Origin: Thermoplasmata archaeon | Lineage (GTDB): Archaea; Thermoplasmatota; Thermoplasmata; Thermoplasmatales; Thermoplasmataceae | Assembly (NCBI GenBank): GCA_021820565.1 | Contig: JAKADL010000001.1 | Span: 2,786-66,785, forward strand | DNA: 64,000 nucleotides | Direction: 5' to 3' | Shown: positions 38,021 through 51,899 of the stretch, piece by piece | How positions within the stretch are numbered: position 1 is the stretch's first letter | Layout: the number at the start of each line of letters is the position of its first letter | The notes under the pieces: model-generated | Told to the model about the DNA's origin: nothing | The model's database searches: none | Seen by the model: only the letters and a program-made list of their open reading frames with translations | Position numbers and translations under genes: made by a program

Positions 38021-38752
38021 TTATAAATCTAGCAGTTTCAGCAGGAATGGCCTTACCGATGAATAGTCTATGCTATATTTTGCATATGTGTCCTGATCTC
38101 CCACCTTGATTGTGATGGCATCAGGGTTGAGCTTAAAAGCATCTTCGTCTGTTGCATCATCGCCCATAATAATTGCCTGCCTATTCTTGTTTCTCAGCAA
38201 CTTTATTGCATTTCCTTTATCGACACGGGGCATTCTCAATTCCAGTATATCTATGCCAGTATACAGATTCATATTAAATTCCCGGGAAAGGCCTATTATA
38301 ATTTTCCTGAGTTCCCTTATTTTTCCAGGATTTTTAATATTTCCGGTGTGGAATAGCAAACCACCAGATTTTCTATATATTCTCAGACCCGGAAATTCAT
38401 CCACAAGATAACTGTTTTCACTGTAAAGTTTTCCTGATAACTGTTCATATTTTTTGAAACCGGGAACTGCTAGATTTTCTCCCTGTATGCGAAAGGTCGC
38501 ACCGTGTAGGCCTATTATATTATATTCCCCAATAAACCGCATTATTTCACATATATCCCTACCGGTAACTATGTATGTTTCATAGGCAGTATTTAATGAT
38601 GCAAGTAGTTCAATAAGTGATTTATCTGCCTGATTGAATTCCGGATCATTGATTATAGGAACCAGTGTTCCATCATAATCCAGGAAAATCTGGGGTACCT
38701 GGCCCATTATGCCCTTGATCCGGCTCAGAAGTTGATTTTCATTGATTATCAT
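38021..38752 (-). CDS. otsB: Trehalose-6-phosphate phosphatase (HAD family)
   Basis: 243 aa with HAD motif I FLDYDGTLVPI and the late motif GDDATDEDAF. Overlaps otsA by 14 nt. Confidence 0.8.
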   Translation of the reverse strand: MIINENQLLSRIKGIMGQVPQIFLDYDGTLVPIINDPEFNQADKSLIELLASLNTAYETYIVTGRDICEIMRFIGEYNIIGLHGATFRIQGENLAVPGFKKYEQLSGKLYSENSYLVDEFPGLRIYRKSGGLLFHTGNIKNPGKIRELRKIIIGLSREFNMNLYTGIDILELRMPRVDKGNAIKLLRNKNRQAIIMGDDATDEDAFKLNPDAITIKVGDQDTYAKYSIDYSSVRPFLLKLLDL

Positions 38753-40070
38753 AATTACTGTCTGCTGCCTTTATAATTCTCTTATACCACCAATCACTGT
38801 TCTTTAAAAGTACGTACTTTTTCATCTTTTCAAGCCTCAATTTTCTTTCTTCGTCACTCATTTCGAGAGCACGAACAATTGAGCTGGCTATTTCATTTAT
38901 ATTATTGGGATTTACTATTAATGCACCCTTGAGTCCCTCAGCGGCCCCTGCAAATTTCGAAAGTATGAGAACTCCCTTTTTCGTGGTCGCAACAAATTCT
39001 TTGCTCACAAGGTTTAACCCGTCTATTAATGGTGTTATCATGGCAATATCGCCACTGGAATAAAGACTTAGAAGGGATCTGAATGACATTTTATGATACA
39101 TGTATACGATAGGTATCCAGGTGGCTGTGCTATACTGCCCGTTTACCCGCCCTATTTCCATCTCCAGCTTGCTCCTGATTTCATCGTATCCCTGGATACC
39201 GGCCCTGCTTGGTGTTACATTCATGAGGTATATGAATTTCCCGGAAAGATCCTTTCTGTAACTTAGCACCTTATCTATTGCCTTGACCCTCTGAATTAGG
39301 CCTTTTGTATAATCCATTCTGTCAACGGAAAATATTATGGATGCCTTTTTCACGTGATGCATCCCGTACTGCCCTTTCAGTGGGTGATAAACCCTTGTAT
39401 CAATCCCCAGTGGTACAGAGAGCGTTTTAAGCTGGCTTATAAGTTTAATATTGTTATATTCAAGCGTCCTGTGGAAATTTTTTTCGTATAATTTTATATG
39501 AAAGGTCACCAGGTTTGATTTGGATATGCTCCTGGCAAGAAACTTCCCCTCCGGTAAAATGCTGAAAAATTCAGAGGATACCCATGGTATATGCCATGAA
39601 AAAATAATATTATTGGCTATGCCCAGATTTCTGAGGATAGAGGGTACCATCATCAGCTGGTAATCGTGGATCCATATGGTTGTTTTACTATCTATTTCTT
39701 CAATGATAGCTTTTGCGAATTTTTCATTAACAGCATAATAATATTTAAATCCGGTTGCATCCAGCTTTATGTTACTCCTGAAATAATGAAAAAGTGGCCA
39801 TAACACACTGTTAGAGTAATCATTATAAAATCCCTGTTTCTCGGTGGCTGTAAGATATAGCCGGCGGACAGTGTAGCCATCAATATCCTCTTTTTCATGC
39901 GCCTGATCATTCCTTCCATCGCCCCAGCAAACCCATGTACCCCTGTATTTTTTGAGAACGCCGGTGAGTGCAGTTGCAACACCGCCCACATTCTGTATTT
40001 TGATCTCCCTGCCATTCTGTATTCTGTATGAATAGGGGGCCCTGCTGGTAACAATAAGAAGTTTATCCAT
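38739..40070 (-). CDS. otsA: Alpha,alpha-trehalose-phosphate synthase (GT20)
   Basis: 443 aa with GT20 blocks: NSVLWPLFHY, IWIHDYQLMMVP, WHIPWVSSEFF, DGLNLVSKEF. Confidence 0.85.
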   Translation of the reverse strand: MDKLLIVTSRAPYSYRIQNGREIKIQNVGGVATALTGVLKKYRGTWVCWGDGRNDQAHEKEDIDGYTVRRLYLTATEKQGFYNDYSNSVLWPLFHYFRSNIKLDATGFKYYYAVNEKFAKAIIEEIDSKTTIWIHDYQLMMVPSILRNLGIANNIIFSWHIPWVSSEFFSILPEGKFLARSISKSNLVTFHIKLYEKNFHRTLEYNNIKLISQLKTLSVPLGIDTRVYHPLKGQYGMHHVKKASIIFSVDRMDYTKGLIQRVKAIDKVLSYRKDLSGKFIYLMNVTPSRAGIQGYDEIRSKLEMEIGRVNGQYSTATWIPIVYMYHKMSFRSLLSLYSSGDIAMITPLIDGLNLVSKEFVATTKKGVLILSKFAGAAEGLKGALIVNPNNINEIASSIVRALEMSDEERKLRLEKMKKYVLLKNSDWWYKRIIKAADSNYDNQ

Positions 40071-40100
40071 AAAAATATAATACAGCTTTGATTAAAAAGG

Positions 40101-41957
40101 TTATTTATATGATTTAATTCCTTTTTTCCGCAGGGCAGAATTTAATTTTACAGCTGCCCTGATAACACCGAGATGCGTAATTGCCTGTGGAAAATTCCCC
40201 AGCATTTCATTGCATTCTTTAAATTCTATCTCTTCAGAGAACAGCATCAGGTGGTTTGAACGTGACAGCAACCTTTCAAATATTTCCTTTGCATCGTTCA
40301 CACGCCCCATGAGTATTAAATCCTCGACATACCAGAATGATAACAATAGAAATCCATTATCATGACCGCTGAGACCATCATTATCCCTGTACCTGATGAA
40401 AAGATCACAGGGGTTTTTTAGATCCTTTTCGACTTTTTTCAATGTGGATAGGAACTTTGGATCGTTTGCTTTAATAAAGCCCGTGAGTGGCATTCTCAGT
40501 ATGGAACCATCAACCTCATCACTGCCATAATACTGTGTAAATGCGTTTACCTCAGTATTATATCCCTTATCCATGATCTCCGCCTTTATTTCCCTTCTAA
40601 CCTTCATCCATTCCCGGTAAGGTGCACGGTAACCCAGTGATTTTCCCATGATAATGGCTCTGTGGAATGCGGTCCATGAAATAAATTTGGAGTAAAGATA
40701 ATGTCTGGGCTCTGATCTGAACTCCCATATACTTGAGTCGGGCAGTTTCCATATATTTTTCAGCGTTTCCAGTATCTCAATTATAAAGTCCCAGAGATAT
40801 GTTGTAACCAATCCTCCAGCCTCATAAAACCTGAATACTGCATCCACAATTGAACCATACTGGTCTATCTGTAACTGATCCGATGCTTTATTTCCTATTC
40901 TTACAGGAGTTGAATCCATATATCCGGAGAAATTTATAATTTTTTCGTCCATATCATCCGATGAATTGATCGGGTATATTGTCCTGATTTTTGTATCTTT
41001 CTGAACCATTGCCATTAGATCATACAGGAATTTTGAGGCTTCATCCTTCAGTCCTATCAGGGAAAGCGATTCTATCACATATGCAGTATCCCTGATCCAT
41101 GTAAAACGGTAATCCCAGTTCCGCTCTCCGCCTATATCTTCCGGCAAACTGGTGGTAGGTGCGGCCACCATCATCCCTGTGGGCTCATAGAAAAGACCCT
41201 TCAGGGTGAGAGCGGATCTGAGCACATGATCGTAATAAAGCCCGCTGTAATTAATCTTGCCTGTCCATGATCTCCAGTAATTCCTGCTTTCTTCCAGCCT
41301 ATCGTAGGAACTGTACTGTTCAACGTTCCCTATCTGCCGAACCCCGCTCAATATCACTACCCACTGGTATGTACCTTTTTTCAGGGTTGTATTGATAAAA
41401 ACATTTTCCTTCCCTTTCTGAAGTTTTAAATTTGTTGAAATTCCCAGTGTTCTGTCTTTGGATGAAAAAAGATAACCATATCTATTTTCACTTATTTTTA
41501 CGTGATCAGTACCGAAATTGAAATCGGGCTTCAGATCCAGCATTATATCAATATCGGTAAACGGTGCCTCGATAAATCTGTGTATTTCCGGAAAATTTAT
41601 GGTACTGTATCCCGAAACAGGGAGAAAATCGGTGAGTCTGAGGACAACATGATTGTCTTTTATAAATTCAGTAATGAGGACATTGGTAAATTCTTCATAG
41701 AACTGGTTAACATGGCATACAGCCACTGGTTTTGTCTTTAAATAGCCTCCCTTATGCGCATCAAGAATTGAATCAAACACCGGATTTGAATTGAAATCTG
41801 GAAAACAGGCCCAGTCAACAGTGCCATCCATCCCTACCAGGGCAGCAGTCCTGTTATTTACAATGAATCCGTGGTCCTTTATTTTGAGATAATCTGAAGT
41901 GTATGTATTTTTTATGTCGTGTAAGCCCCTATATGATCCCATTGAAAAATAAAGCAT
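40101..41957 (-). CDS. Glycoside hydrolase family 15 (glucoamylase-like; probable trehalase)
   Basis: 618 aa with GH15 catalytic-domain blocks (ERNWDYRFTWIRDTAY, LFSEEI). Located directly upstream of otsA-otsB on the same strand. Confidence 0.8.
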   Translation of the reverse strand: MLYFSMGSYRGLHDIKNTYTSDYLKIKDHGFIVNNRTAALVGMDGTVDWACFPDFNSNPVFDSILDAHKGGYLKTKPVAVCHVNQFYEEFTNVLITEFIKDNHVVLRLTDFLPVSGYSTINFPEIHRFIEAPFTDIDIMLDLKPDFNFGTDHVKISENRYGYLFSSKDRTLGISTNLKLQKGKENVFINTTLKKGTYQWVVILSGVRQIGNVEQYSSYDRLEESRNYWRSWTGKINYSGLYYDHVLRSALTLKGLFYEPTGMMVAAPTTSLPEDIGGERNWDYRFTWIRDTAYVIESLSLIGLKDEASKFLYDLMAMVQKDTKIRTIYPINSSDDMDEKIINFSGYMDSTPVRIGNKASDQLQIDQYGSIVDAVFRFYEAGGLVTTYLWDFIIEILETLKNIWKLPDSSIWEFRSEPRHYLYSKFISWTAFHRAIIMGKSLGYRAPYREWMKVRREIKAEIMDKGYNTEVNAFTQYYGSDEVDGSILRMPLTGFIKANDPKFLSTLKKVEKDLKNPCDLFIRYRDNDGLSGHDNGFLLLSFWYVEDLILMGRVNDAKEIFERLLSRSNHLMLFSEEIEFKECNEMLGNFPQAITHLGVIRAAVKLNSALRKKGIKSYK

Positions 41958-42025: not shown

Positions 42026-42259
42026 TCAGGATTCATTATCTCCGCCTTCTTCCTCTTCGCTGCCGGTTATAACTTCATCGCTATCTGTAACATGATATCT
42101 TGATCTTGTGTGGCATTCCGGGCATTTGCATGAAAATGTATGTAGTCCATATCTGAATATTACACCGACCTCCGGATCGGACAGCGAATTCCACGCTGAA
42201 TAATTAACCGTAAATTCATTTCCACATTTGGGACATTTAACACTGTATTCTTCTGTCAT
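42026..42259 (-). CDS. Small zinc-ribbon protein with an acidic tail
   Basis: 77 aa with CPKCG...CKCPECH and C-terminal SEEEEGGDNES. Divergent from the MIT-AAA gene. Confidence 0.5.
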   Translation of the reverse strand: MTEEYSVKCPKCGNEFTVNYSAWNSLSDPEVGVIFRYGLHTFSCKCPECHTRSRYHVTDSDEVITGSEEEEGGDNES

Positions 42260-42391: not shown

Positions 42392-43651
42392 ATGACTCTC
42401 GTGGATGATGCTCTTCAGATAATAAAACAGGCACAGGATGCTGAAAGTAACAACCGGGTAAGGGAGGCGATTAAACTATATACCGAAGCTGCTAAACTTC
42501 TGATGAGATCATCTAAACTTGAAAATCCAGATGTGTCAGCTCATCGTGTAAAACAGGCAAGGTCCATATTCCAGATTGCGGATAATTTAGAGGAAAAACT
42601 CCGGAATCAGGAGGAGGCAGAAGAAAAGAAGTCAGATACATTATTATTGACAAATGATGTGAATAAACAGGATATTCCCGTTGATGCTAGAACCAGGAAA
42701 CAAAAGTTGCCGATTGATATTGTTCAAGAGAAGTCCTTATCAGGAGATAATAGAAAGGAGGTTGCCATGCCCGAGGATGTGAATTTGAAAAATACCCCGG
42801 AAGAGCAGATATTTCTGGATGAAATGGGCATTGATAATATCAATATCCCTGATATTTCCTTTGATGATGTGGTTGGATTAGATATGGTTAAGGATGAAGT
42901 TAAGGTTAAAATACTTCTACCACTGATAAAAAAGGACCTTGCAAAAGTTTATGATATCAGTGCTGGAGGCGGGATACTTATGTATGGTCCTCCGGGAAAT
43001 GGGAAAACATTTATAGCCAGAGCCATAGCCCATGAAGCCAGAGCATATTTTATAAATATCAACCCGTCCAACCTGCTTAACCAGTGGTTTGGAAAATTTG
43101 AAAAGAATATAGAAAAACTATTTAAATACGCATCGAAACATTCTCCTGCCGTATTATTTTTCGACGAAATAGATGCAATTACCCCGAAGAGATCAAAAAC
43201 CAATTCCAGCTATATGAAAAGAGCCGTCCCTGCATTACTTTCGGAAATGGATGGCATAGTCGCCAGAAAACATACATTGCTGGTTATAGGGGCCACAAAC
43301 AATCCATGGGATATAGATGAGGCATTTCTGAGACCGGGAAGATTTGGAGAGCGCATATATATTCCACCGCCTGATGTAAAGGCACGTGAAATTCTATTTC
43401 AAATGTATTTAAAAAATGCCATACATGATGAATTAGATTATGAATACTTTTCAAATATTACAGAAAATTTCTCTGCTGCGGATATAAAATATGTCTGTGA
43501 TAAAGCAAAAGAAAAAGTATTCAAAGAGGTAACAACAACCGATGTGGTAAGAAACATAACAGAAGAAGACGTACTTGAATCAATAGATGCAAGCAAACCC
43601 TCCGTAAATAACGAGATGCTCGCTAAATACATAAATTTCAGAGATTCATAA
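42392..43651 (+). CDS. MIT-domain AAA+ ATPase (Vps4/CdvC-like), paralogue 1
   Basis: 419 aa. N-terminal MIT-like three-helix region (ALQIIKQAQDAESNNRVREAIKLYTEAAKLL), a long charged linker, Walker A GPPGNGKT, Walker B LFFDEID, pore loop QWFG, and RPGRF arginines. Confidence 0.8.
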   Translation: MTLVDDALQIIKQAQDAESNNRVREAIKLYTEAAKLLMRSSKLENPDVSAHRVKQARSIFQIADNLEEKLRNQEEAEEKKSDTLLLTNDVNKQDIPVDARTRKQKLPIDIVQEKSLSGDNRKEVAMPEDVNLKNTPEEQIFLDEMGIDNINIPDISFDDVVGLDMVKDEVKVKILLPLIKKDLAKVYDISAGGGILMYGPPGNGKTFIARAIAHEARAYFININPSNLLNQWFGKFEKNIEKLFKYASKHSPAVLFFDEIDAITPKRSKTNSSYMKRAVPALLSEMDGIVARKHTLLVIGATNNPWDIDEAFLRPGRFGERIYIPPPDVKAREILFQMYLKNAIHDELDYEYFSNITENFSAADIKYVCDKAKEKVFKEVTTTDVVRNITEEDVLESIDASKPSVNNEMLAKYINFRDS

Positions 43652-43790: not shown

Positions 43791-44912
43791 ATGAACAAAT
43801 CTATTTATAACCAAATGTGTTATTATTCTATGAAATTAAGCTATAAAAAACTCAAAATGCCATTGATAAGCCCTTTTACCACCAGTTTTGGAACAGACAA
43901 AGATAAGGATGTTTATGTATTTATTCTTGAAAATAATGGTATAACGGCTTATTCGGAGTGTGTTACCGACGAAAATCCATTTTATGGCCCTGAAGACAAT
44001 TATACAGCATTCCACATCATTAAAAATTACCTCTCCACTATTGTAAAGGAAGCACCGGAGCCTGAAGAATTCAATGGAAGATCTAAATTTATAAAGGGCA
44101 ACAATATGGCAAAGGCTGCCATGGAGATGCTTCTGTATGATTATTATGCAAAACTTGATGGAAAGCCTTTAAGCAAGTACATGGGCAAAACAAGGGGCTA
44201 TGCCAATGTTGGTATCTCTCTCGGCATGGATGATATCAATATAACTCTAAAGAAAATACAGGATGCACTGGACCGTGGGTATAAAAGGGTGAAAGTAAAG
44301 ATAATGAAAGGTAAGGAGACAGAAATTCTGGGAGCTGTTCGCGATAGTTTCCCGGAAATAGTTCTGAGTGCCGATGCCAACAGTGACTATACAGAGAAAG
44401 ATTTTAACCTCGTTAAAAAAATTGATAAATATGACCTAGTGTATCTGGAACAGCCACTCTATCATGATGATATCATCTATCATTCAAGACTGGCAAAGCA
44501 GATGTCAACTCCCATATGCCTTGATGAATCCATAACATCCCCGGAAAAAGCACAGAAAGCATTCGAAATTGAGGCCTGCAAGGTCATAAATATCAAGGAG
44601 GGCCGTCTGGGCGGCATAGAAAATTCATTGAAAGTTATGGATATAGTAAAATCCTTCAAGGGTAATGTCTGGATCGGTGGAATGCTTGAAACCGGAATCG
44701 GGAGGGCATTCAATGTCTCTGTTGCATCACTTGAAGACATAAACTATCCCGGCGATACATCGCCAAACGATAAATACTTCACACATGATATTGTCAAGAA
44801 CCCATTTAATATGATTAATGGAACCATAAAACCCAATGAAGGCAATGGCATTGGGGTCGAAATTGATGGAGAATATTTAAAGAAGTATACAGTAGAGGAG
44901 GGTGTTTTATAA
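43791..44912 (+). CDS. Enolase-superfamily enzyme, o-succinylbenzoate synthase / N-acylamino-acid racemase type
   Basis: 373 aa. The KVKI...DANSDY...LEQP...DES pattern of metal ligands is typical of the MLE subgroup. The true start is probably M14 (MKLSYKKLKMPLISPF). Confidence 0.75.
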   Translation: MNKSIYNQMCYYSMKLSYKKLKMPLISPFTTSFGTDKDKDVYVFILENNGITAYSECVTDENPFYGPEDNYTAFHIIKNYLSTIVKEAPEPEEFNGRSKFIKGNNMAKAAMEMLLYDYYAKLDGKPLSKYMGKTRGYANVGISLGMDDINITLKKIQDALDRGYKRVKVKIMKGKETEILGAVRDSFPEIVLSADANSDYTEKDFNLVKKIDKYDLVYLEQPLYHDDIIYHSRLAKQMSTPICLDESITSPEKAQKAFEIEACKVINIKEGRLGGIENSLKVMDIVKSFKGNVWIGGMLETGIGRAFNVSVASLEDINYPGDTSPNDKYFTHDIVKNPFNMINGTIKPNEGNGIGVEIDGEYLKKYTVEEGVL

Positions 44913-44953
44913 CGAATAATATAATAGAATATTTCAAAGGGCAGCAGGATGCT

Positions 44954-46036
44954 ATGATTTCTGATCTGAAATCAATCATTGAAATAGAAAGCCCTTCCAC
45001 AGATAAAGCGAGTTTAGACATATTTGCTTCCTTTATGAAAGAATACATAAAAAAGGAGCTTGGCCTGGATGCTGAAATTCTTGAATCCAATGATGCCGGT
45101 AACGATTTACGCCTGCGTATAAGAGGAAAACTTGAAAAACAGGTGCTTTTATTATGCCATTATGATACTGTATTCTCTAAGGGAACGCTGAAAAGTAGAC
45201 CGTTCAGGATAGTTGATGGAAAAGCATATGGCCCCGGAATCTTTGATATGAAAACAGGGATTATACAGACAATTTATGCATTGAAAGCACTGATAAAAAA
45301 TAATGAATTGTTAAATAACGTTGTTTTGTTGATTACATCTGATGAAGAAATTGAATCAAGGTCATCAAAGGATATTATAATAAATGAAGCAAAAAAGTCC
45401 CTGTATACTCTAGTAATGGAACCTTCTCTGAATGGTGCACTGAAAACGGAGAGAAGTGGTGTTGGAACCATTACCGTTAATGTTTATGGTAAAGCTTCAC
45501 ATGCCGGCCTGGATCCTGAAAGTGGTGCCAATGCAATATATGAGATAGCATATATGATCCCTGAAATTATCGGCCTGAACAACAAAAGTAAAGGCACATC
45601 ATTGAACCTTGACGTTATAAAAGGAGGTGACAGAACCAACGTAATTCCTGACTTCTGCCAGGGTATAATGGATATACGCTACCGCATTCCGGAAGAATCA
45701 GATAGAGTTTTAAAAGCACTGAAAGAGATACCGGCAAAAATTCCTGGAACCAGACGGGAAATAGAATATATACTCAGGCCACCATTAATAAAAACTGTGG
45801 AATCAGAAAAACTTTATGAAAAGATAAATAAGCTGGGGGCTGAAAATGGCATTCATATCTCACAGGCATCCGTGGCAGGTGGCAGCGATGGGAACTTCTG
45901 TTCTTATTACTGTCCGGTTATAGATGGATTGGGAGCAGTGGGAGCGGGGGCGCACTCTGAAAACGAGTATGTGCTTGTAGATAAAATCCCGGAAAGAACG
46001 GCACTGTTATATTTAATACTGAAGAATATAGAGTGA
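44954..46036 (+). CDS. M20-family metallopeptidase / N-acyl-L-amino-acid amidohydrolase (carboxypeptidase G2-like)
   Basis: 360 aa with HYDTV, GPGIFDMKTG and SDEEI motifs. Confidence 0.8.
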   Translation: MISDLKSIIEIESPSTDKASLDIFASFMKEYIKKELGLDAEILESNDAGNDLRLRIRGKLEKQVLLLCHYDTVFSKGTLKSRPFRIVDGKAYGPGIFDMKTGIIQTIYALKALIKNNELLNNVVLLITSDEEIESRSSKDIIINEAKKSLYTLVMEPSLNGALKTERSGVGTITVNVYGKASHAGLDPESGANAIYEIAYMIPEIIGLNNKSKGTSLNLDVIKGGDRTNVIPDFCQGIMDIRYRIPEESDRVLKALKEIPAKIPGTRREIEYILRPPLIKTVESEKLYEKINKLGAENGIHISQASVAGGSDGNFCSYYCPVIDGLGAVGAGAHSENEYVLVDKIPERTALLYLILKNIE

Positions 46037-46056
46037 AATATCCATATTTATATATT

Positions 46057-46572
46057 TTAAAGCATTTTCTCCATAATTTCAGTATCAATCCATTTATCAT
46101 TTATAATTCCCTGCTCATGCAATACTCCCACAGATGAAAAACCTCTTGACAGATAAAGTTTTTTTGCCCTCTCATTTCCATAAATCATAGTAAGTACTAT
46201 TTTATGGAAGTCATTGTTTCTGGCTGTTGAGATCCCATGATCCAGAAGGAAGCCTCCTGTACCCATATTTCGCATGTCTCTGTGTACATAAATAGAGATA
46301 TCGGCAACGAATCTATAAGCCTCACGCTGGCTGAATTTGTTAAGAGATAACCATCCGGAGATATATCCTGATGATTCTGCGACCATAACAGTATACCGCG
46401 CATCCCGGTTGATCAGCCATTGTTTTACAAATTTTTCATCTCTGAATTCAGTTTCAAGAGTTGCATTACCTTCTTCAATTCCCTGATTCCAGATTTCAGC
46501 AATTTTGCCTGCATCTGATAACTCTGCATTTCTGAATAGTGGAGTTGTCTCCATAGAATTCTTAGTCGACAC
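46057..46572 (-). CDS. GNAT N-acyltransferase, phosphinothricin-acetyltransferase (PAT) family
   Basis: 171 aa. Pattern IWNQGIEEGNATLETE...AYRFVADISIYV...RNMGTGGFLL...NERAKKLYLSRGF matches the PAT-type GNAT family. Confidence 0.8.
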   Translation of the reverse strand: MSTKNSMETTPLFRNAELSDAGKIAEIWNQGIEEGNATLETEFRDEKFVKQWLINRDARYTVMVAESSGYISGWLSLNKFSQREAYRFVADISIYVHRDMRNMGTGGFLLDHGISTARNNDFHKIVLTMIYGNERAKKLYLSRGFSSVGVLHEQGIINDKWIDTEIMEKML

Positions 46573-46653
46573 GTTTATTTAATTTTTTGGAAGGAATATA
46601 GATTTATTTAACTTTAAAAATTGGAAATCCTGTACATCAATATGTAGAAGATG

Positions 46654-47547
46654 TTACTTATTAATCTCCTCAACAATTCCCATAATACTTGTATTTATCT
46701 TATTCCAGAGCTCACTTCTCCTCTCCATGTATCTTATCTCGTCCCTGCTCATTCTCAATTTTGGTATGGAGTCTGGTATTATATAATTTTCATAATCCTT
46801 TAAAACCAGTGATTCCATTATACTTTCCATAACTATGATTCTATTGTTAACTTTGTATTTAAACGGTTTTATTTTGGCAAATCTGGCCACAATATAAGAT
46901 AGATATGAAATGACCATGGGCTCTAGATGCAAAATCCCCATATCTATTAATTTATAGTTTGCAGCTATTACTGCATCTCTCAAATTCATTATTCTGGTAA
47001 TTGCAGTATTCTGGCTATTTCTCCGGTAATCCAGTGAATCAAAATGTTCTGACGGGAATGCTATAACACCACCGAATTGAATTGCCCTTGCTAAAAGATC
47101 GATGTCCTCATACTCTCTCAGATTTCTCCATCCACCTGTTCTATCTATTAAGTCCCTTGGAATTATCATTACTTCGGAAAGTAAAACCTTTTTTTCCCAT
47201 TTCACGAGAAAGTTATGTATTAAATCCGAAATTTCCGGACGATAATTTACCGTGGGATTGAATATAATCAGAAAATCCCCTGTACTCTGTAAATATGCAA
47301 GTTGTTTTCCTTCACCGTAGGTTGTGAATTTTGCCTTAATAAATTTTATATTTTCAGATTTAAAGTTCACTGACTCATGTGTAGATACAACCAGTTCATA
47401 TGGATATCCCACTTCCTCTGCTACATTTATAATGCTTTCCACTGATTTTTTAACATTTTCAGTTATTTCCAGTGCAACGGCACAGAAGGAAATTTTTATT
47501 CCACGGGAATAGGATACAGGCATATTTTTTACTTCATATGATTCCAT
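46654..47547 (-). CDS. Hypothetical protein, distantly GT-A/GT2-like
   Basis: 297 aa. The N-terminal beta-alpha-beta pattern (ISFCAVALEITEN...YELVV) resembles a GT-A fold, but no clear DxD motif is present. Confidence 0.35.
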   Translation of the reverse strand: MESYEVKNMPVSYSRGIKISFCAVALEITENVKKSVESIINVAEEVGYPYELVVSTHESVNFKSENIKFIKAKFTTYGEGKQLAYLQSTGDFLIIFNPTVNYRPEISDLIHNFLVKWEKKVLLSEVMIIPRDLIDRTGGWRNLREYEDIDLLARAIQFGGVIAFPSEHFDSLDYRRNSQNTAITRIMNLRDAVIAANYKLIDMGILHLEPMVISYLSYIVARFAKIKPFKYKVNNRIIVMESIMESLVLKDYENYIIPDSIPKLRMSRDEIRYMERRSELWNKINTSIMGIVEEINK

Positions 47548-47708
47548 AGTATGTTTTGGATAATGATATATCGAATTAAAGCTTATTGGTCAGAAAATCC
47601 ATTATAATTATTATTGGCCTTATTTATTTGAAATAAGAAAATTTGTAGTTTTCCATATGATTACAAATAAATTTAAATAATGTTATAATATTATAAAAAT
47701 GGAGATTT

Positions 47709-48161
47709 ATGACACTCATAGTCAGAACTTTGATTCATTTATTAGATCATGAAGTTGAAAATGACACTGCCTCAAAAGTTTATATCAATGTTCCCAAGAA
47801 AGTTTTAGAGATGTATACTGTAAAAGTCGGGTGTATTTTGAATGGCGAAATTGAACAAATCAAAAAATTTATAGATGAGAATGAATCGCTAAACCCCCAG
47901 ATCAGAACAGGAGCAAAAGATTACAGTCAGATCATAGGAAATCACGTTAAAATGATATACTATAAAGGTGCAGCAGATGAGGACCATGATTATTTATTCT
48001 TTCCCAAGCCAACAGCAATAAAATTAACATCATACGCAATATTTCCCAATGATTATGTAATTAAGATGGCTTTTGATAGTATAATATGTGGATGGAAACA
48101 TACTAAGCTTTACAGTGAAACATCTGTAAACTTTGATGATACGGAGCAGTATTATGACTGA
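47709..48161 (+). CDS. Hypothetical protein, first gene of the MIT-AAA/coiled-coil operon
   Basis: 150-aa ORF. Its stop overlaps the preferred ATG of the next gene (ATGACTGA). No family recognised. Confidence 0.45.
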   Translation: MTLIVRTLIHLLDHEVENDTASKVYINVPKKVLEMYTVKVGCILNGEIEQIKKFIDENESLNPQIRTGAKDYSQIIGNHVKMIYYKGAADEDHDYLFFPKPTAIKLTSYAIFPNDYVIKMAFDSIICGWKHTKLYSETSVNFDDTEQYYD

Positions 48162-49251
48162 AACGAAGGTTGACCATGCTGGTTTACTTATTAAAAAAGC
48201 TATGGATGCCGAATCCGCCGGAAATAGAGAGGAAGCAGCTCGGATATATAAAAATGCATATGATGAAATCATGGAAATAGCTGCGCATTCCAGTGGAAGG
48301 ATAAGGGAAAAAAGACTGCGCCAGGCGGAAAGCCTGAAAAAAATTTATGAATCCATTGAGGGGAAACCTGATGAAGAGGACAGGGTGGCCGAGGGGAGAA
48401 AAATTCTGGATCAGCTGAATATAGAACCACCTGAGATACCAAAGATTACTTTCCAGGAGGTTGCAGGGCTTGAAAATGTGAAAAATGAGATAATGTCAAA
48501 GATAATATATCCAATGAGATATAAGGAGCTCTCCCAGGAATATAATATTGAATTCAGTGGTGGAATGCTGCTTTATGGACCACCCGGTACTGGCAAAACA
48601 TTTATTGTCAAGGCTATAGCTAATGAGGTAAAAGCCAATTTTATTAATGTTAACCCATCTACATTGTACAGTCAGTGGTTCGGGCAATTTGAAAAAAATA
48701 TATCACAGCTATTCCATGCTGCATATTTATTATCTCCATCAATATTATTTTTCGATGAAATAGACACGCTTGTACCGAAACGATCTGGTTCTGAATCAGA
48801 TGCAGCAAGAAGGGGAGTTTCACAGCTTCTTACGGAAGTTGGCGGGCTCACATCCCAGAAGGACAGGAATATATTCATAATAGCTGCCACAAATAATCCC
48901 TGGGGAATTGACGAGGCAATAATGAGGCCGGGAAGATTCGATGTCAAGATATATGTCCCACCACCTGATTATGAATCCAGAAAGAAATTATTCCAGCTAA
49001 AATTATCTGAAATTAAGCACCTGGGCAAAATAGATTATGGAGATCTCGCAGAGAAAACAGAAAGATATTCTGGTGCGGATATTGAGTTCATCTGCAAAAA
49101 GGCTGTTCAAAATGTATTCATGGAAGTCATAAAAACGGGGGATAAAATTGATGTTACAACGGAAGACCTCCTGGATGTGATATCCCAGATAAAACCATCA
49201 ATAGATATTAGTCTTCTCAAAAAATATCAGGATTACACATTGACCACGTAA
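48154..49251 (+). CDS. MIT-domain AAA+ ATPase (Vps4/CdvC-like), paralogue 2
   Basis: N-terminal MIT-like helices (LLIKKAMDAESAGNREEAARIYKNAYDEIMEIA), Walker A GPPGTGKT, Walker B LFFDEID, pore loop QWFG, RPGRF. Colinear with, and clearly similar to, paralogue 1 across the ATPase domain (by eye). Start chosen at ATG 48154; the track ORF starts at 48133. Confidence 0.8.
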   Translation: MTETKVDHAGLLIKKAMDAESAGNREEAARIYKNAYDEIMEIAAHSSGRIREKRLRQAESLKKIYESIEGKPDEEDRVAEGRKILDQLNIEPPEIPKITFQEVAGLENVKNEIMSKIIYPMRYKELSQEYNIEFSGGMLLYGPPGTGKTFIVKAIANEVKANFINVNPSTLYSQWFGQFEKNISQLFHAAYLLSPSILFFDEIDTLVPKRSGSESDAARRGVSQLLTEVGGLTSQKDRNIFIIAATNNPWGIDEAIMRPGRFDVKIYVPPPDYESRKKLFQLKLSEIKHLGKIDYGDLAEKTERYSGADIEFICKKAVQNVFMEVIKTGDKIDVTTEDLLDVISQIKPSIDISLLKKYQDYTLTT

Positions 49252-49288
49252 AATCTGAACCCAATTTTTGTACCGAAATATTTATTAC

Positions 49289-49930
49289 ATGGTAAATACT
49301 ATAAATATTATGTCCATTTTACCTAAGAAAAAGCACCAGTTAACAAAGGAGGAGCAACTCGAAGAAACTAAAGTAAAAATTAAGGATTTGCAGATGAATT
49401 TAAAGAGAGCCATACGTGCACTTCTTAAAAGGGCGCAGTCCCTGGAGGCCAGTAGGCAGGCTGCAGAAGAGAGGAGTTATAATGATATAGAAAATGGATT
49501 ATCAAAGCAAATTAATGATGTAAGAGCATTCATCACATATTTTGATAGAACCAACATACTTCTTGATTCAATTTCATCCCAGCTTGATATGTTCAATGAT
49601 GCGGGAAAGGCAATGGACCTCATAGCTGATAGTGAGGTTATATTCCAGGCACTGAAAATTACGCCCGATCAACAGGCCAGTTATCTAAAATCATTAACTA
49701 GCATAAAGGATATAGCTGATAGCAACCTCAATTCAATCAATGACCAGGTAGAGCAGATAAATGAAAATCTTGGATTCAGTGAGGGTACCGAGTCACCTAT
49801 TTCAGAGGACCAGCTTCTTACCAACTTCCTGAATAGAACTGCGGCAAAGGCTAAAACAGGAAATCAGAAAACTGACGAAATAGATAAAGAACTGGAAAAA
49901 AGAAACACAGAGCGCGAATCACAGAACTGA
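49289..49930 (+). CDS. Coiled-coil protein, candidate ESCRT-III/Snf7 (or PspA/Vipp1)-superfamily member
   Basis: About 200-213 aa. Basic N-terminal helical hairpin (KKKHQLTKEEQLEETKVKIKDLQMNLKRAIRALLKRAQSLE), an acidic central and C-terminal part, and a helical C-terminal tail. Immediately downstream of the MIT-AAA gene. Start is at ATG 49289 or ATG 49310. Confidence 0.4.
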   Translation: MVNTINIMSILPKKKHQLTKEEQLEETKVKIKDLQMNLKRAIRALLKRAQSLEASRQAAEERSYNDIENGLSKQINDVRAFITYFDRTNILLDSISSQLDMFNDAGKAMDLIADSEVIFQALKITPDQQASYLKSLTSIKDIADSNLNSINDQVEQINENLGFSEGTESPISEDQLLTNFLNRTAAKAKTGNQKTDEIDKELEKRNTERESQN

Positions 49931-50090
49931 TCAAATCAGCATTATGATAATCAGAAAAAGAAAGGAAAACCCTCTTTTTTTCGATCTGGGCGTTTTCAGA
50001 CAGCAGAGAAATGAAAATGAATTCAAAAAATTTCTGGAACGTATTAAGGGAAGATGAACAGGCGGGAGGAAGTTATATTACACTGGAATA

Positions 50091-50540
50091 CTATAAATGT
50101 TTAGTCATCCTGAATGCATTGACAGATCCCAGATAACTTAGATTATAATACCCGGAGATTAATTCTGAAATGATATATCCATGATTTTTATAGAAATTTA
50201 TTGCTCCCGAGTTTTTCTCCCTGACCTCCAGCACCACATCCTCATAGCCTCTCTTTTTTGCCTCTATTTCCATAGCCTTTATCAGAAGTGATCCGAGGCC
50301 ATGGCCGTGCTGCTCCGGTATAATTGCAATGCTTTCTATATCGACCGAAATTAGATTCAATTTCTCCATTGTTGCATAACCATATAACACACTGTTATCT
50401 TCAACAACCATTGTAAAACTCCCCGGGCTTTTAAGCATCATTTTAAGCATATAGTTAGAATACGCACCTTCGCCGAAGGCTTTCTGTTCAATTTGCGATA
50501 GAGAATTGAAATCCTGATCCCTGTAATACCTTACATGCAT
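50091..50540 (-). CDS. rimI: GNAT N-acetyltransferase (RimI/Ard1-type N-terminal acetyltransferase)
   Basis: 149 aa with the acetyl-CoA motif PEQHGHGLGSLLI and the typical RimI length. Confidence 0.75.
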   Translation of the reverse strand: MHVRYYRDQDFNSLSQIEQKAFGEGAYSNYMLKMMLKSPGSFTMVVEDNSVLYGYATMEKLNLISVDIESIAIIPEQHGHGLGSLLIKAMEIEAKKRGYEDVVLEVREKNSGAINFYKNHGYIISELISGYYNLSYLGSVNAFRMTKHL

Positions 50541-50588
50541 ATGTGGGGAATATGGGAGAGAAATATATAATTTAACGTCTGGAAAGAA

Positions 50589-51206
50589 TTATTTCCCAAC
50601 TCCGGGATATTCTGAAATTCTGTTATATAGCTGTATAGGCAAGTCCCGAAAACTGCTGTCCTTATCAATTATATTTTTCAGCGAATCACTGATCATAGGA
50701 TCAAATACAAGAATCTCGGCTGGTTTCAAAATGTGTATTACCGGCACTATATAGGTTCTGAATAAGGATTCGATAATATAGTCAAAGGTAACTATGCCAT
50801 TGAATTCCGTTCTCTGGAATAGGTTAAGAAATGTCTCTTTTTCCCTGGTTCTCAGTGGTACTATATTTATCATGGATACATTATCCAATTTTTCAGTAAT
50901 TGGGCGGTACTTATTTTTATAGAATTCCTTATCGTCAAAACTTTCTGGATCATCACCATGTATTCCATTAAAATTTATTATTAATTTATCTGTTTTATCC
51001 CCGTTGAGATTCAACACAGTAAAATCATCAACTGTAAATAGCATATTTATGTCCTGATAATCCAGATCATCATACTCCAGCCCGCCTGGAACAAAATCAT
51101 CCCTGCTTACATATGTACAGTCCTCTATTATATCAACGTTGAAAAGAAAATCAATCGCGTTATTTCTCAATTCATCCAGTTCATCCATGGTATCACCAAA
51201 TAGCAT
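50589..51206 (-). CDS. Hypothetical protein
   Basis: 205-aa ORF with an acidic N-terminal half. No family recognised. Confidence 0.45.
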   Translation of the reverse strand: MLFGDTMDELDELRNNAIDFLFNVDIIEDCTYVSRDDFVPGGLEYDDLDYQDINMLFTVDDFTVLNLNGDKTDKLIINFNGIHGDDPESFDDKEFYKNKYRPITEKLDNVSMINIVPLRTREKETFLNLFQRTEFNGIVTFDYIIESLFRTYIVPVIHILKPAEILVFDPMISDSLKNIIDKDSSFRDLPIQLYNRISEYPGVGK

Positions 51207-51213
51207 TTATGAA

Positions 51214-51294
51214 CGCCACGGGGGTGATTCGAACACCCGATCCACAAGGGAACCAGCTCTCAAGGCTGGCGCCGTACCACTGGGCCACCGTGGC
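51214..51294 (-). tRNA. tRNA-Ser (anticodon UGA)
   Basis: The reverse complement folds as acceptor GCCACGG/CCGTGGC, anticodon stem CCAGC/GCTGG with loop CTTGAGA, a long variable arm (TTCCCTTGTGGATC), T-arm GGGTG-TTCGAAT-CACCC, and discriminator G. Confidence 0.85.
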
Positions 51295-51302
51295 ATTAAA
51301 AA

Positions 51303-51899
51303 TTATTTGCGAAGTCTGCCGTTAGCTCTTATAGAAGGTCTGCTCTTATCGCTTCCGAGCCTGCCATGTCCGAGACCCCTGTTTTTATATGCTGCAGATG
51401 TTAAACCCCTGTATGCCCTTCCCTTGTTCTGAGGCTCTACTATCCATGAGATCTTAGGATCATTATATATTGCAGGTACCGCCTTATCTACAAGTATTAC
51501 CTCGTAATATTTATAAAGCCCATCCTCGCCAACATAATAGGAATTTAACACTTCGGTATTAGGGTACTTGTCTGCAACCCTCTCCTCTGCTATAACCTGA
51601 ATATTCTTTTTCAGGGTCATTTTAGTGTATCCGAGTCTTCTTGGCCTTCTTCCTCCCATTATTTTGGGTTTGTGCTGTCCGCCTCTTCTGACCCTAGCCC
51701 TTACCACTATGTATCCTTCCTTAGCCTTGTATCCTACATTTCTTGCCTTATCGAGTCTCGTGGGTCGCTCTACTCTCTCTATAGCATTGCCTCTTCTCCA
51801 TGAAATCATTCTTTCCTTTTGAATGCCGTATATGCTTGATTTTTTGAGGTGTTTCCATTCATCCCTTATTAAGCTGTATGAAGTTTCCATATTATTCAC
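51303..51899 (-). CDS. rpl15e: 50S ribosomal protein L15e
   Basis: 198 aa. Highly basic, with conserved blocks [31 protein letters not shown] and RRP. Confidence 0.92.

What the first reader, a model, noticed from the sequence alone, without database searches (positions are those of the whole stretch)
47709..49930. Three-gene operon: unknown protein, MIT-AAA+ (Vps4/CdvC-like) ATPase, and a coiled-coil ESCRT-III-like protein
The three genes are tightly coupled. The first pair overlaps by 8 nt (ATGACTGA), and the second pair is separated by 37-58 nt.

The middle gene has an N-terminal MIT-like three-helix domain plus a single AAA+ cassette. It carries the pore loop QWFG and RPGRF arginine fingers, which is the Vps4 layout.

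The last gene encodes a protein of about 205 aa. It has a basic N-terminal helical hairpin and an acidic helical remainder, which is the charge asymmetry and size typical of ESCRT-III/Snf7 (or PspA/Vipp1) proteins.

To my knowledge ESCRT/Cdv function has been shown experimentally only in TACK and Asgard archaea. A Vps4-plus-ESCRT-III-like module with a new 150-aa partner in a wall-less Thermoplasmatales-type organism is a plausible, uncharacterised membrane-remodelling, division or vesicle system.
Basis: partly seen in the sequence, partly recalled or inferred. Interest (0 to 1): 0.65.

Follow-up and report, generated by a model that had tools for sequence, protein, structure and literature searches.

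The report
Known minimal ESCRT module of Ferroplasma
This Ferroplasma locus encodes a Vps4-like ATPase, a very divergent ESCRT-III protein and a small beta-barrel partner, which is the minimal ESCRT system already described by genome analysis in Thermoplasmata in 2024 and proposed, without experiments, to divide these FtsZ-less, wall-less cells.

Summary

- **g2** is a MIT plus single-AAA ATPase of the Vps4 kind.
- **g3** is a highly divergent ESCRT-III protein. Support comes from profile links to orthologues that match Pfam Snf7, from CdvB as the top hit in PDB, and from a six-helix predicted structure whose best structural matches are Sulfolobus CdvB and CdvB2.
- **g1** is a member of arCOG07400, a beta-barrel protein with no structural relative in PDB.

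The organism is a Ferroplasma. Makarova et al. 2024 (mBio, PMC10936438) already describe this exact trio as the "Thermoplasmata minimal ESCRT system". Their tables list the syntenic loci of F. acidarmanus and a Vps4 entry for F. acidiphilum, and they propose a role in cell division. So the finding is a correct rediscovery, not a new system.

Refinements from this work:
- Only g1 and g2 are translationally coupled.
- g3 has its own conserved promoter-like block, and its position varies across Thermoplasmata.
- The window holds a second, stand-alone MIT-AAA paralogue (42392-43651). It is absent from the same site in three other Ferroplasma genomes.

Function has not been tested experimentally.

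The parts
47672..47679 (+). TATA-like element (TTTAAATA) inside a block (ACAAATAAATTTAAATAATG) conserved upstream of g1 in Ferroplasma species. Putative promoter of the g1-g2 unit.
   Evidence: The upstream regions were compared across the window, L001, L006, L088 and L089, and the sequence was read. The promoter function is inferred and has not been mapped.
47709..48161 (+). g1: 150-aa arCOG07400-family beta-barrel protein, translationally coupled to g2.
   Evidence: - It has no hit in Pfam, NCBIfam, PHROGs, PADLOC or PDB by sequence.
- The family profile reaches T. volcanium TVG0372401 (P0027, E=1.5e-38). That gene is the arCOG07400 entry in Table S2 of PMC10936438.
- The AlphaFold2 model has pLDDT 82.9 and pTM 0.79, with about 9 strands.
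- Foldseek finds no significant match in PDB or BFVD.
48154..49251 (+). g2: Vps4-like ATPase. MIT domain about residues 1-78 (48154-48387), linker, one AAA+ cassette (Pfam 138-269), lid and C-terminal helix.
   Evidence: - Pfam gives AAA 7e-41, AAA_lid_3, and MIT at 25.3 bits.
- The best full-length model in NCBIfam is CdvC, at 221.8 bits over residues 14-362.
- PDB 4lcb (CdvC/Vps4) aligns over residues 16-362.
- The N-terminal profile hits the VPS4B MIT domain at E=3.7e-5, and also calpain-7, spartin and yeast Vps4 MIT domains.
- Vps4_C scores 17.5 bits, below the gathering score of 21.3.
49265..49269 (+). T5 run 14 nt after the g2 stop codon. Possible archaeal oligo-T terminator of the g1-g2 unit.
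   Evidence: The sequence was read. The terminator function is inferred only.
49272..49309 (+). Conserved promoter-like block ACCGAAATATTTATTA-N6-GTAAATACTATAAATATT immediately upstream of the g3 ATG. The TATA-like TATTTATTA is centred about 27 nt before the ATG.
   Evidence: The block is nearly identical upstream of g3 in L001, L088 and L089 (F. acidiphilum) and L090, whatever gene lies upstream. This implies an independent, probably leaderless, g3 transcript (inferred).
49310..49930 (+). g3: 206-aa divergent ESCRT-III/Snf7-superfamily protein (arCOG07402 orthologue).
   Evidence: - The start codon is fixed by the alignment and by public gene calls.
- The family profile hits CdvB (PDB 9s9j) at E=8.3e-6 and CHMP3 at 0.03.
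- Orthologues L003, L002 and L007 pass the Pfam Snf7 gathering score.
- hhalign of the Ferroplasma profile against those orthologues gives E=3.8e-5 over 172 collinear columns.
- The AlphaFold2 model has six helices (13-54, 58-107, 109-114, 119-154, 166-183, 190-205) at pLDDT 76.8.
- The top 8 Foldseek hits in PDB are S. islandicus CdvB and CdvB2.
49975..49981 (+). T7 run 45 nt after the g3 stop codon. Possible terminator.
   Evidence: The sequence was read. The terminator function is inferred only.
42392..43651 (+). g2b: a second, stand-alone MIT-AAA (Vps4-like) paralogue of 419 aa with a long charged linker.
   Evidence: - Pfam gives MIT at 33.4 bits (gathering score 30), AAA at 9e-41, and Vps4_C at 21.4 bits (gathering score 21.3).
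- It is 39% identical to g2 over the full length, including the MIT region.
- It is absent from the same SGA1-RspA gap in F. acidarmanus, F. acidiphilum and Ferroplasma sp. CP133597.
- In a neighbour-joining tree it is sister to the Thermoplasmata Vps4 clade.

Best explanation
**What it is**
The locus is the Ferroplasma copy of the minimal ESCRT system of Thermoplasmata.

**Proposed mechanism.** Steps 1-3 are inferred from the well-studied Cdv and eukaryotic ESCRT-III/Vps4 systems. None has been shown in this organism.
1. g3 is the only ESCRT-III protein in the locus. It would bind the membrane through its basic, hydrophobic N-terminus (MSILPKKK...) and basic helix 1, and polymerise into filaments at a membrane neck.
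2. The MIT domain of g2 would dock on the conserved C-terminal acidic or amphipathic helix of g3 (DEIDKELEKR in Ferroplasma; LxxLLxxL in Thermoplasma-type orthologues).
3. The g2 hexamer would thread g3 subunits through its central pore (W175 pore loop, ATP hydrolysis with R258 and R261). This would turn over or disassemble the polymer and drive constriction and scission.
4. g1 is made in fixed ratio with g2 through the 8-nt overlap. It most likely acts as a cofactor or adaptor of the ATPase or the polymer. That would be a functional stand-in for CdvA or Vta1, although g1 is homologous to neither.

**Likely cellular role**
Ferroplasma genomes are reported to lack FtsZ, SepF and PRC-barrel proteins. 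The most likely role is therefore cytokinesis of these wall-less cells.

**My estimates**
- Identity of the system: about 0.9.
- ESCRT-III/Vps4 remodelling mechanism: about 0.75.
- Cell division as the main role: about 0.5.
For: - **Organism and synteny:** The g3 homologues are from Ferroplasma, at 81-96% identity. The gene order is the same as in F. acidarmanus fer1 in Table S2 of PMC10936438. That table runs RspA, ArgE, acyltransferase, arCOG05398, arCOG07400, Vps4 arCOG01307, ESCRT-III arCOG07402, RimI, L15E. The same order holds in F. acidiphilum.
- **g2:** CdvC is the best full-length model. The MIT domain is supported by Pfam and by profile hits in PDB. All AAA motifs are invariant. In a neighbour-joining tree, g2 groups with single-AAA Vps4-like proteins, apart from Cdc48 D1 and D2.
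- **g3:** The N-terminal part is basic and the rest acidic.
- **g1-g2 coupling is conserved:**
  - L001, L089 and L090 show an 8-nt overlap.
  - T. volcanium (372394/372401) and F. acidarmanus show the same overlap in the paper's table.
- **Published context:** The absence of FtsZ, SepF and PRC-barrel proteins in Ferroplasma, and the division hypothesis, come from PMC10936438. A 2025 review repeats them (PMC7619361).
Against: - **No experiments:** The paper searches found no experimental data for any Thermoplasmata ESCRT protein.
- **g3 sequence evidence is weak on its own:**
  - The window g3 alone does not reach Snf7 or CdvB significantly.
  - The Ferroplasma-only profile does not either. 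CdvB scores E=2.3, and only 4 clusters were found among 1.84 billion representatives.
  - The assignment rests on bridging orthologues, predicted fold and synteny.
- **Structural scores are modest:** Foldseek E-values for g3 are 4e-3 or worse, and TM-scores are about 0.4.
- **g2 domain scores are below threshold:** The MIT and Vps4_C scores of g2 fall below Pfam gathering scores.
- **The MIM is degenerate:** The C-terminal motif in Ferroplasma g3 is a weak version of the MIM1 consensus.
- **Distribution argues against a division-only role:**
  - Thermoplasma and Cuniculiplasma have this system together with complete FtsZ machinery.
  - Picrophilus has only an arCOG07400 protein, which also argues against g1 being strictly ESCRT-dependent.
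- **Not testable here:** Absence of ftsZ in this particular organism could not be checked from 64 kb.
Confidence: 0.7

Rival explanations
1. The machinery is the same ESCRT-III/Vps4 pair, but its main job is not cytokinesis. It would instead serve extracellular-vesicle budding, membrane repair or maintenance (a PspA-like role), or nanotube and bud formation in wall-less cells.
For: - The same system coexists with complete FtsZ machinery in T. volcanium, T. acidophilum and Cuniculiplasma (PMC10936438).
- ESCRT-III superfamily members do vesicle biogenesis in Sulfolobales and membrane repair in bacteria.
- An accessory second Vps4 paralogue in this species hints at more than one membrane process.
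Against: - Ferroplasma and Acidiplasma are reported to lack FtsZ, SepF and PRC-barrel proteins. Some other division machine is therefore needed, and this is the only candidate named apart from actin.
- The system lacks the cargo-sorting components seen in other euryarchaeal ESCRT loci.
Confidence: 0.25
2. g3 is just a lineage-specific coiled-coil protein, and g2 is a general AAA+ unfoldase (Cdc48/VAT-like, for example feeding the proteasome). The ESCRT resemblance would be superficial.
For: - The AAA cassette of g2 scores as high against VAT and p97 D2 as against CdvC.
- The window g3 has no significant direct hit to Snf7.
- All-helical proteins give promiscuous Foldseek matches to BAR domains and designed bundles.
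Against: - The only full-length model match for g2 is CdvC/Vps4, and it includes a MIT-type N-domain.
- The syntenic g3 orthologues pass the Snf7 gathering score and align end-to-end with the Ferroplasma profile.
- The eight best structural matches to g3 are all CdvB or CdvB2, at probability 1.0.
- The g2-g3 linkage recurs across Thermoplasmata.
Confidence: 0.03
3. The module is an anti-phage defence system of the IetAS or IteA kind, built around an AAA ATPase.
For: g2 and g2b hit the PADLOC IetA models at 130-133 bits, and g2 also hits the NCBIfam IteA model at 120 bits.
Against: - The hits cover only the generic AAA cassette and score well below CdvC (222 bits) and below the IteA cut-off of 510.
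- No IetS-like protease partner is present.
- g1 and g3 have no PADLOC or PHROG hit.
- The locus is a conserved core-genome neighbourhood next to ribosomal protein L15e in all Ferroplasma examined. It is not a variable island.
Confidence: 0.02

Closest known systems
Thermoplasmata minimal ESCRT system (Makarova et al. 2024, mBio, PMC10936438): Vps4 arCOG01307 + ESCRT-III arCOG07402 + beta-barrel arCOG07400
   Same: - The three families match, and the host genus is the same.
- The flanking genes are the same as in F. acidarmanus fer1 and F. acidiphilum.
- The 8-nt overlap between arCOG07400 and Vps4 is the same.
   Different: - Here g3 lies directly downstream of Vps4, 58 nt away. In F. acidarmanus and F. 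acidiphilum two opposite-strand genes (a membrane/SHOCT protein and a MarR-like regulator) intervene.
- This species also carries an extra MIT-AAA paralogue 4.5 kb upstream.
CdvABC cell-division system of Sulfolobales and other TACK archaea
   Same: - Both pair an ESCRT-III polymer (CdvB family) with a MIT-AAA ATPase (CdvC) and one lineage-specific third component.
- CdvB and CdvB2 are the best sequence-profile and structural matches for g3.
- CdvC is the best full-length model for g2.
   Different: - g2 scores 222 bits against the CdvC equivalog cut-off of 650. The literature places it in a separate Thermoplasmata clade.
- The locus holds one ESCRT-III gene rather than CdvB plus CdvB1, CdvB2 and CdvB3.
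- g1 is not CdvA: it shows no PRC-barrel or coiled-coil signal.
- From my own knowledge, Sulfolobus CdvB uses a MIM2-type peptide and a winged helix. Neither is evident in g3.
Eukaryotic and Asgard ESCRT-III (CHMP/Snf7) with Vps4
   Same: - The helix layout matches, with a long alpha1-alpha2 pair followed by shorter helices and a C-terminal helix.
- CHMP3, CHMP1B and CHMP2A appear among the profile and fold hits.
- VPS4A and VPS4B MIT domains are the best matches to the g2 N-terminus.
   Different: - No ESCRT-I, ESCRT-II or ubiquitin components are present.
- No Vta1 is present.
- From my own knowledge, eukaryotic Vps4 carries a beta-domain insertion. It is not evident in g2.
- Sequence identity is very low (about 14-20%).
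PspA/Vipp1 (bacterial and archaeal ESCRT-III superfamily)
   Same: Same superfamily fold. PspA rods appear far down the Foldseek list (ranks 40 and 44).
   Different: - No PspA hit was seen in Pfam or NCBIfam.
- PspA systems are not partnered with MIT-AAA ATPases.
- The g3 orthologues match Snf7, not PspA.

Membership tests
Thermoplasmata minimal ESCRT system (PMC10936438) | A Vps4-family MIT-AAA ATPase (arCOG01307) in a Thermoplasmata genome. | tested here: met
   The locus is syntenic with the F. acidarmanus gene listed as arCOG01307.
Thermoplasmata minimal ESCRT system (PMC10936438) | An arCOG07400 protein encoded directly upstream of Vps4. | tested here: met
   The g1 family profile hits T. 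volcanium TVG0372401 at E=1.5e-38. That gene is the arCOG07400 entry at 371934..372401 in Table S2. The 8-nt overlap is conserved.
Thermoplasmata minimal ESCRT system (PMC10936438) | An ESCRT-III gene of arCOG07402 in the neighbourhood. | tested here: met
   g3 is 81% identical to F. acidiphilum FAD_0484. It lies between Vps4 and RimI/L15E, as FACI_RS07500 (arCOG07402) does.
ESCRT-III / Snf7 (Pfam PF03357) | A direct match of the window protein to the Snf7 model above the gathering score. | tested here: not met
   The window g3 has no Snf7 hit at E<=1. The Ferroplasma-only profile reaches CdvB only at E=2.3.
ESCRT-III / Snf7 (Pfam PF03357) | Homology shown through family profiles or orthologues. 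| tested here: met
   - Orthologues L003, L002 and L007 score 29.6, 37.9 and 44.8 bits against a gathering score of 27.3.
- hhalign of the Ferroplasma profile against these orthologues gives E=3.8e-5 and probability 71% over 172 columns.
- The whole-family profile has CdvB (9s9j) as its top PDB hit at E=8.3e-6, followed by CHMP3.
ESCRT-III / Snf7 (Pfam PF03357) | A long alpha1-alpha2 helical hairpin followed by alpha3 to alpha5 and a C-terminal helix. | tested here: met
   - The AlphaFold2 helices are 13-54, 58-107, 109-114, 119-154, 166-183 and 190-205, at pLDDT 76.8.
- The top 8 Foldseek hits are CdvB and CdvB2 at probability 1.0.
- This is a prediction only. The coordinates were not inspected, and TM-scores are about 0.4.
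ESCRT-III / Snf7 (Pfam PF03357) | A C-terminal MIT-interacting motif (MIM). | tested here: inconclusive
   - A conserved C-terminal helix is present: DEIDKELEKR in Ferroplasma, and LxxLLxxL in Thermoplasma-type orthologues.
- It resembles MIM1 only loosely in Ferroplasma.
- Co-folding was not available.
ESCRT-III / Snf7 (Pfam PF03357) | Polymerisation on membranes and remodelling of them. | not testable with these tools
   This needs biochemistry or imaging.
Vps4 / CdvC AAA ATPases | An N-terminal MIT three-helix domain. | tested here: met
   - Pfam MIT gives E=1.6e-5 at 25.3 bits, below the gathering score of 30.
- The N-terminal profile of 10 orthologues hits the full-length VPS4B MIT domain (profile positions 3-77) at E=3.7e-5.
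- The same profile also hits calpain-7, spartin, VPS4A, yeast Vps4 and Sulfolobus MIT domains.
- TPR hits cover only one short stretch.
Vps4 / CdvC AAA ATPases | A single AAA+ cassette with Walker A and B motifs, an aromatic pore loop 1 and SRH arginine fingers. | tested here: met
   GPPGTGKT, DE201-202, W175, R258 and R261 are invariant across 10 orthologues. Pfam AAA gives 7e-41.
Vps4 / CdvC AAA ATPases | The Vps4 C-terminal oligomerisation helix (PF09336). | tested here: inconclusive
   The g2 C-terminal fragment scores 17.5 bits against a gathering score of 21.3. The paralogue g2b scores 21.4 bits and just passes.
Vps4 / CdvC AAA ATPases | The NCBIfam CdvC equivalog score (NF041006, cut-off 650). 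| tested here: not met
   g2 scores 221.8 bits. It is therefore not an equivalog of crenarchaeal CdvC, which fits the separate Thermoplasmata clade reported in PMC10936438.
Vps4 / CdvC AAA ATPases | Phylogenetic separation from Cdc48 D1 and D2. | tested here: met
   In a rough neighbour-joining tree of 140 AAA domains, g2, its Thermoplasmata orthologues and g2b cluster with other single-AAA proteins, outside the Cdc48 D1 and D2 clades. The tree has no bootstrap and no reference CdvC sequences.
CdvA (considered for g1) | An N-terminal PRC barrel, a coiled coil and a C-terminal ESCRT-III-binding peptide. | tested here: not met
   - No PRC or other Pfam hit was found in any of 18 family members.
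- The profile has no sequence hit in PDB.
- The model is all-beta with only short helices.
- No PRC-barrel structure appears among the Foldseek hits.
PspA/Vipp1 (considered for g3) | A match to PspA/IM30 models. | tested here: not met
   No PspA hit was seen in Pfam or NCBIfam. PspA structures rank 40th or lower in Foldseek.
IetAS / IteA defence ATPases (considered for g2) | A full-length IetA or IteA match plus a partner protease. | tested here: not met
   The matches cover the AAA cassette only, at 120-130 bits against an IteA cut-off of 510. The locus contains no protease gene.

The most novel reading that the evidence does not exclude
g1 (arCOG07400) would be a new kind of ESCRT accessory factor. 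Its beta-barrel fold has no solved relative, and it is made stoichiometrically with Vps4. It would take the place of CdvA or ESCRT-II as the recruiter or nucleator of a single ESCRT-III protein on a tetraether membrane. This Ferroplasma species would additionally have split Vps4 function between two MIT-AAA paralogues (g2 with g1, and the stand-alone g2b with a long linker), for example one for division and one for vesicle formation or repair.
Probability: 0.2. Interest if true: 0.55.

Novelty: already known. Interest (0 to 1): 0.3.

Why it matters
Ferroplasma has no cell wall and is reported to lack FtsZ. How such cells divide has not been tested.

A three-protein ESCRT set (one ESCRT-III, one Vps4, one small partner) would be the simplest ESCRT machine known. 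It would also be an independent case of ESCRT being recruited for cytokinesis outside TACK archaea and eukaryotes. From my own knowledge, Ferroplasma membranes are rich in tetraether lipids, which would make it attractive for in-vitro reconstitution on such membranes.

All of this has already been set out from comparative genomics (PMC10936438; PMC7619361). The value of this window is therefore confirmatory. It adds small refinements: the transcription-unit structure, the extreme divergence of Ferroplasma ESCRT-III, and an extra Vps4 paralogue.

Tried and rejected
1. **g1 as a cradle-loop, AbrB-like or VAT-N-like barrel built from two beta-alpha-beta repeats.**
   - I noticed two similar 'strand, P-K, helix' elements (KVYINVPKKVLEMY and DYLFFPKPTAIKLTSY).
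   - hhalign of the two halves gave E=0.21 and probability 0.3.
   - Foldseek gave only weak hits (E>=0.017, TM about 0.35) to the Sen1/Upf1 1B barrel and to the FAD-binding barrels of NqrF and siderophore-interacting proteins.
   - The idea is not supported. It is kept only as a lead.
2. **g1 as CdvA or a PRC barrel.** No evidence was found.
3. **Viral relatives of g1.** None were found in BFVD or PHROGs.
4. **Defence-system reading (IetA, IteA, TRIP13).** Only generic AAA similarity was found.
5. **g2b as cargo of a mobile element.** No convincing flanking direct or inverted repeats were found. A metagenome scan for relatives returned one distant AAA only.
6. **Reaching Snf7 directly from Ferroplasma sequences.**
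   - A full HMMER scan of 1.84 billion representatives with the Ferroplasma-only g3 profile found just 4 clusters.
   - The same profile against PDB gave CdvB at E=2.3.
   - Bridging orthologues were needed.
7. **The 275-aa ORFs that overlap the Vps4 start in distant Thermoplasmata MAGs (L004, L005).** They match neither the g1 nor the g3 profile, nor Pfam or PDB.


Full report
**1. Observation**

The + strand between 47709 and 49930 holds three ORFs.
- g1 runs 47709-48161 (150 aa).
- g2 runs 48154-49251 (365 aa, counting from the ATG of ATGACTGA).

The g1 stop and the g2 start overlap by 8 nt, and a GGAG lies 7 nt before the g2 ATG. All homologues of g3, and the public gene calls on identical contigs, start at MSILPKK. 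This fixes g3 at 49310-49930 (206 aa) and the spacer at 58 nt. In F. acidiphilum the position corresponding to 49289 is not an ATG. Residues 1-57 of g3 have pI 10.0, and the other three segments have pI 4.0-5.0.

**2. Organism and prior description**

The g3 homologues are all from Ferroplasma: 96-67% identical, including F. acidiphilum FAD_0484 at 81%.

Makarova et al. [quoted passage not shown] They note that Picrophilus, Acidiplasma and Ferroplasma lack FtsZ, SepF and PRC-barrel proteins. [quoted passage not shown] They also caution that Thermoplasma and Cuniculiplasma have it alongside FtsZ.

Their Table S2 lists the F. acidarmanus fer1 neighbourhood in this order:
- RspA
- ArgE
- acyltransferase
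- arCOG05398
- arCOG07400
- Vps4 (arCOG01307)
- two opposite-strand genes
- RimI
- an unnamed gene
- L15E

The window has the same order from 43791 to 51899. A 2025 review repeats the idea of independent ESCRT-III-based division in Thermoplasmatota (PMC7619361). Three literature searches found no experimental work. The finding is therefore a correct rediscovery.

**3. g2**

- Pfam gives AAA 7e-41, AAA_lid_3, and MIT at E=1.6e-5 and 25.3 bits, under the gathering score of 30.
- The best NCBIfam model is CdvC, at 221.8 bits covering residues 14-362. This is far below the equivalog cut-off of 650. CDC48 and PAN models match the AAA part only.
- In PDB, the AAA cassette scores highest against VAT and p97 D2. 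The only full-length match is CdvC/Vps4 (4lcb), over residues 16-362.
- A profile of the first 80 residues of ten orthologues hits whole MIT domains. These are VPS4B (profile positions 3-77, E=3.7e-5), calpain-7, spartin, VPS4A, yeast Vps4, Sulfolobus MIT and MITD1. TPR proteins match only a 20-residue stretch.
- Vps4_C reaches 17.5 bits against a gathering score of 21.3.
- A rough neighbour-joining tree of 140 AAA domains puts g2 and its orthologues among single-AAA proteins, away from Cdc48 D1 and D2.

g2 is a Vps4-family ATPase of a lineage-specific clade.

**4. g3**

On its own, the window protein gives only weak CdvB hits: PDB 9s9j at E=0.3 and NF041008 at E=0.23. The Ferroplasma-only profile finds just four clusters among 1.84 billion representatives and reaches CdvB only at E=2.3. 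The protein is therefore very divergent.

The link to ESCRT-III comes from orthologues found beside Vps4 orthologues in other Thermoplasmata.
- L003, L002 and L007 pass the Pfam Snf7 gathering score, at 29.6, 37.9 and 44.8 bits against 27.3.
- The Ferroplasma profile aligns with them end-to-end, at hhalign E=3.8e-5 over 172 columns.
- The combined family profile has CdvB as its top PDB hit (E=8.3e-6), followed by CHMP3.
- AlphaFold2 predicts six helices (13-54, 58-107, 109-114, 119-154, 166-183, 190-205) at pLDDT 76.8.
- The eight best Foldseek hits in PDB are S. islandicus CdvB and CdvB2, at probability 1.0 and E between 4e-3 and 6e-2. CHMP3, CHMP1B, CHMP2A-CHMP3 and PspA come lower.
- The C-terminal helix is conserved: DEIDKELEKR in Ferroplasma, and LxxLLxxL in the Thermoplasma-type proteins. 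It is a plausible MIM. Binding could not be tested.
- From my own knowledge, the N-terminus of the Thermoplasma-type orthologues (M..FKFGKSEEE) resembles the MxxLFGK start of CHMP proteins. The Ferroplasma MSILPKKK looks like a derived form.

**5. g1**

g1 has no hit in Pfam, NCBIfam, PHROGs, PADLOC or PDB by sequence. Its family is restricted to Thermoplasmata. It includes T. volcanium TVG0372401, which is the arCOG07400 entry of the paper.

The AlphaFold2 model is confident (pLDDT 82.9, pTM 0.79). It is mostly beta, with a disordered loop at residues 60-68. Foldseek finds nothing significant in PDB or BFVD. The weak hits are small barrels: the Sen1/Upf1 1B domain and ferredoxin-reductase-type FAD domains. 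g1 is not CdvA-like. An internal-repeat idea was not supported.

The role of g1 is unknown. The conserved start/stop overlap with Vps4 argues for a stoichiometric partner. The existence of stand-alone paralogues (Picrophilus, and a second copy in Ferroplasma and Acidiplasma) argues that it is not exclusively tied to ESCRT.

**6. Transcription units**

The 38 nt before the g3 ATG (49272-49309) are almost identical in five Ferroplasma loci: ACCGAAATATTTATTA-N6-GTAAATACTATAAATATT. This holds even in F. acidiphilum, where g3 follows a divergent MarR-like gene rather than Vps4. A T5 run follows the g2 stop codon.

The position of g3 varies:
- adjacent to Vps4 in the window, L001, L003, L006 and L090
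- separated from it by two genes in F. acidiphilum and F. acidarmanus
- about 5 kb away in a Thermoplasma MAG
- upstream and divergent in Thermogymnomonas

The best reading is a g1-g2 bicistron plus an independently promoted g3. This is an inference, as no transcript data are available.

**7. Surroundings**

A second MIT-AAA gene lies at 42392-43651 (g2b, 419 aa).
- It passes the Pfam MIT gathering score (33.4 bits) and just passes Vps4_C (21.4 bits).
- It is 39% identical to g2 along its whole length, with a linker about 60 residues longer.
- In the neighbour-joining tree it is sister to the Thermoplasmata Vps4 clade.
- It is present in all contigs of this species.
- It is absent from the same glucoamylase-RspA gap in F. 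acidarmanus, F. acidiphilum and Ferroplasma sp. CP133597, which has an MFS gene there.
- No mobile-element signature was seen.

**8. Mechanism and verdict**

By analogy with the Cdv and eukaryotic systems, I propose the following. g3 polymerises on the membrane. g2 binds the tail of g3 through its MIT domain and extracts subunits through the W175 pore using ATP, which drives constriction and scission. g1 modulates or recruits. The cellular role is most likely cytokinesis in this FtsZ-less genus (about 0.5), otherwise vesicle formation or membrane repair.

Identity with the published system is about 0.9. Novelty is 'already known'. Interest is modest, because the biology is still untested and the system is attractively minimal.

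Noticed in passing
window 42392-43651 (+): There is a second, stand-alone Vps4-like MIT-AAA paralogue (419 aa; MIT 33.4 bits, Vps4_C 21.4 bits; 39% identical to g2; long charged linker). It is present in this species but absent from the syntenic glucoamylase-RspA gap in F. acidarmanus, F. acidiphilum and Ferroplasma sp. CP133597. In a neighbour-joining tree it is sister to the Thermoplasmata Vps4 clade.
   Followed up: partly
L008:5331-7044 and L009:5348-7104 (Dehalococcoidia MAG contigs DAOUCU010000053.1 and CAZGDV010000071.1): Two contigs binned as bacterial (Dehalococcoidia) carry an ESCRT-III-like ORF directly upstream of a full-length Vps4-like ATPase.
- The L009 ORF passes the Pfam Snf7 gathering score (32.1 bits).
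- The ATPases are 41% and 37% identical to g2.
- In L008, a second AAA gene, a PP2C phosphatase, a HEAT-repeat protein and zinc-ribbon proteins lie nearby. A second AAA gene also lies upstream in L009.
- In the tree these ATPases are sister to the Thermoplasmata Vps4 group.
This is either gene transfer of an archaeal ESCRT system into bacteria or mis-binning. The 2024 survey states that ESCRT components are not found in bacteria.
   Followed up: partly
L004:5171-9647 and L005:5150-7083 (distant Thermoplasmata MAGs): The Vps4 orthologues here (44-46% identical) are preceded by an overlapping 275-277-aa ORF. That ORF has no match to g1, g3, Pfam or PDB. L004 also has a second pair: a 198-aa coiled-coil ORF followed by a 398-aa AAA gene. 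This may be a different variant of the module.
   Followed up: partly
L007:5390-6984 (Thermogymnomonas acidicola JCM 13583): The Vps4 orthologue is split over three ORFs, and the g1 ORF runs on into MIT-like sequence. This is either a set of frameshift errors in the draft assembly or a decaying gene.
   Followed up: no
window 42026-42259 (-): A 77-aa zinc-ribbon ORF (weak DUF7560 and Brz-type zinc-ribbon hits) lies in the same species-specific insert as g2b, divergent from it.
   Followed up: no
window 46654-47547 (-) and 50589-51206 (-): Two conserved Ferroplasma genes flank the module and have no Pfam or NCBIfam hit. The 297-aa gene divergent from g1 is listed as arCOG05398 'glycosyl transferase family 2' in the 2024 paper's table. 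The 205-aa gene has no arCOG there.
   Followed up: no
window 38021-41957 (-): A trehalose-related gene cluster lies just upstream of g2b. It comprises a trehalose-phosphatase, a GT20 trehalose-6-phosphate synthase and a GH15 glucoamylase or trehalase-like gene. It is conserved in other Ferroplasma loci.
   Followed up: no
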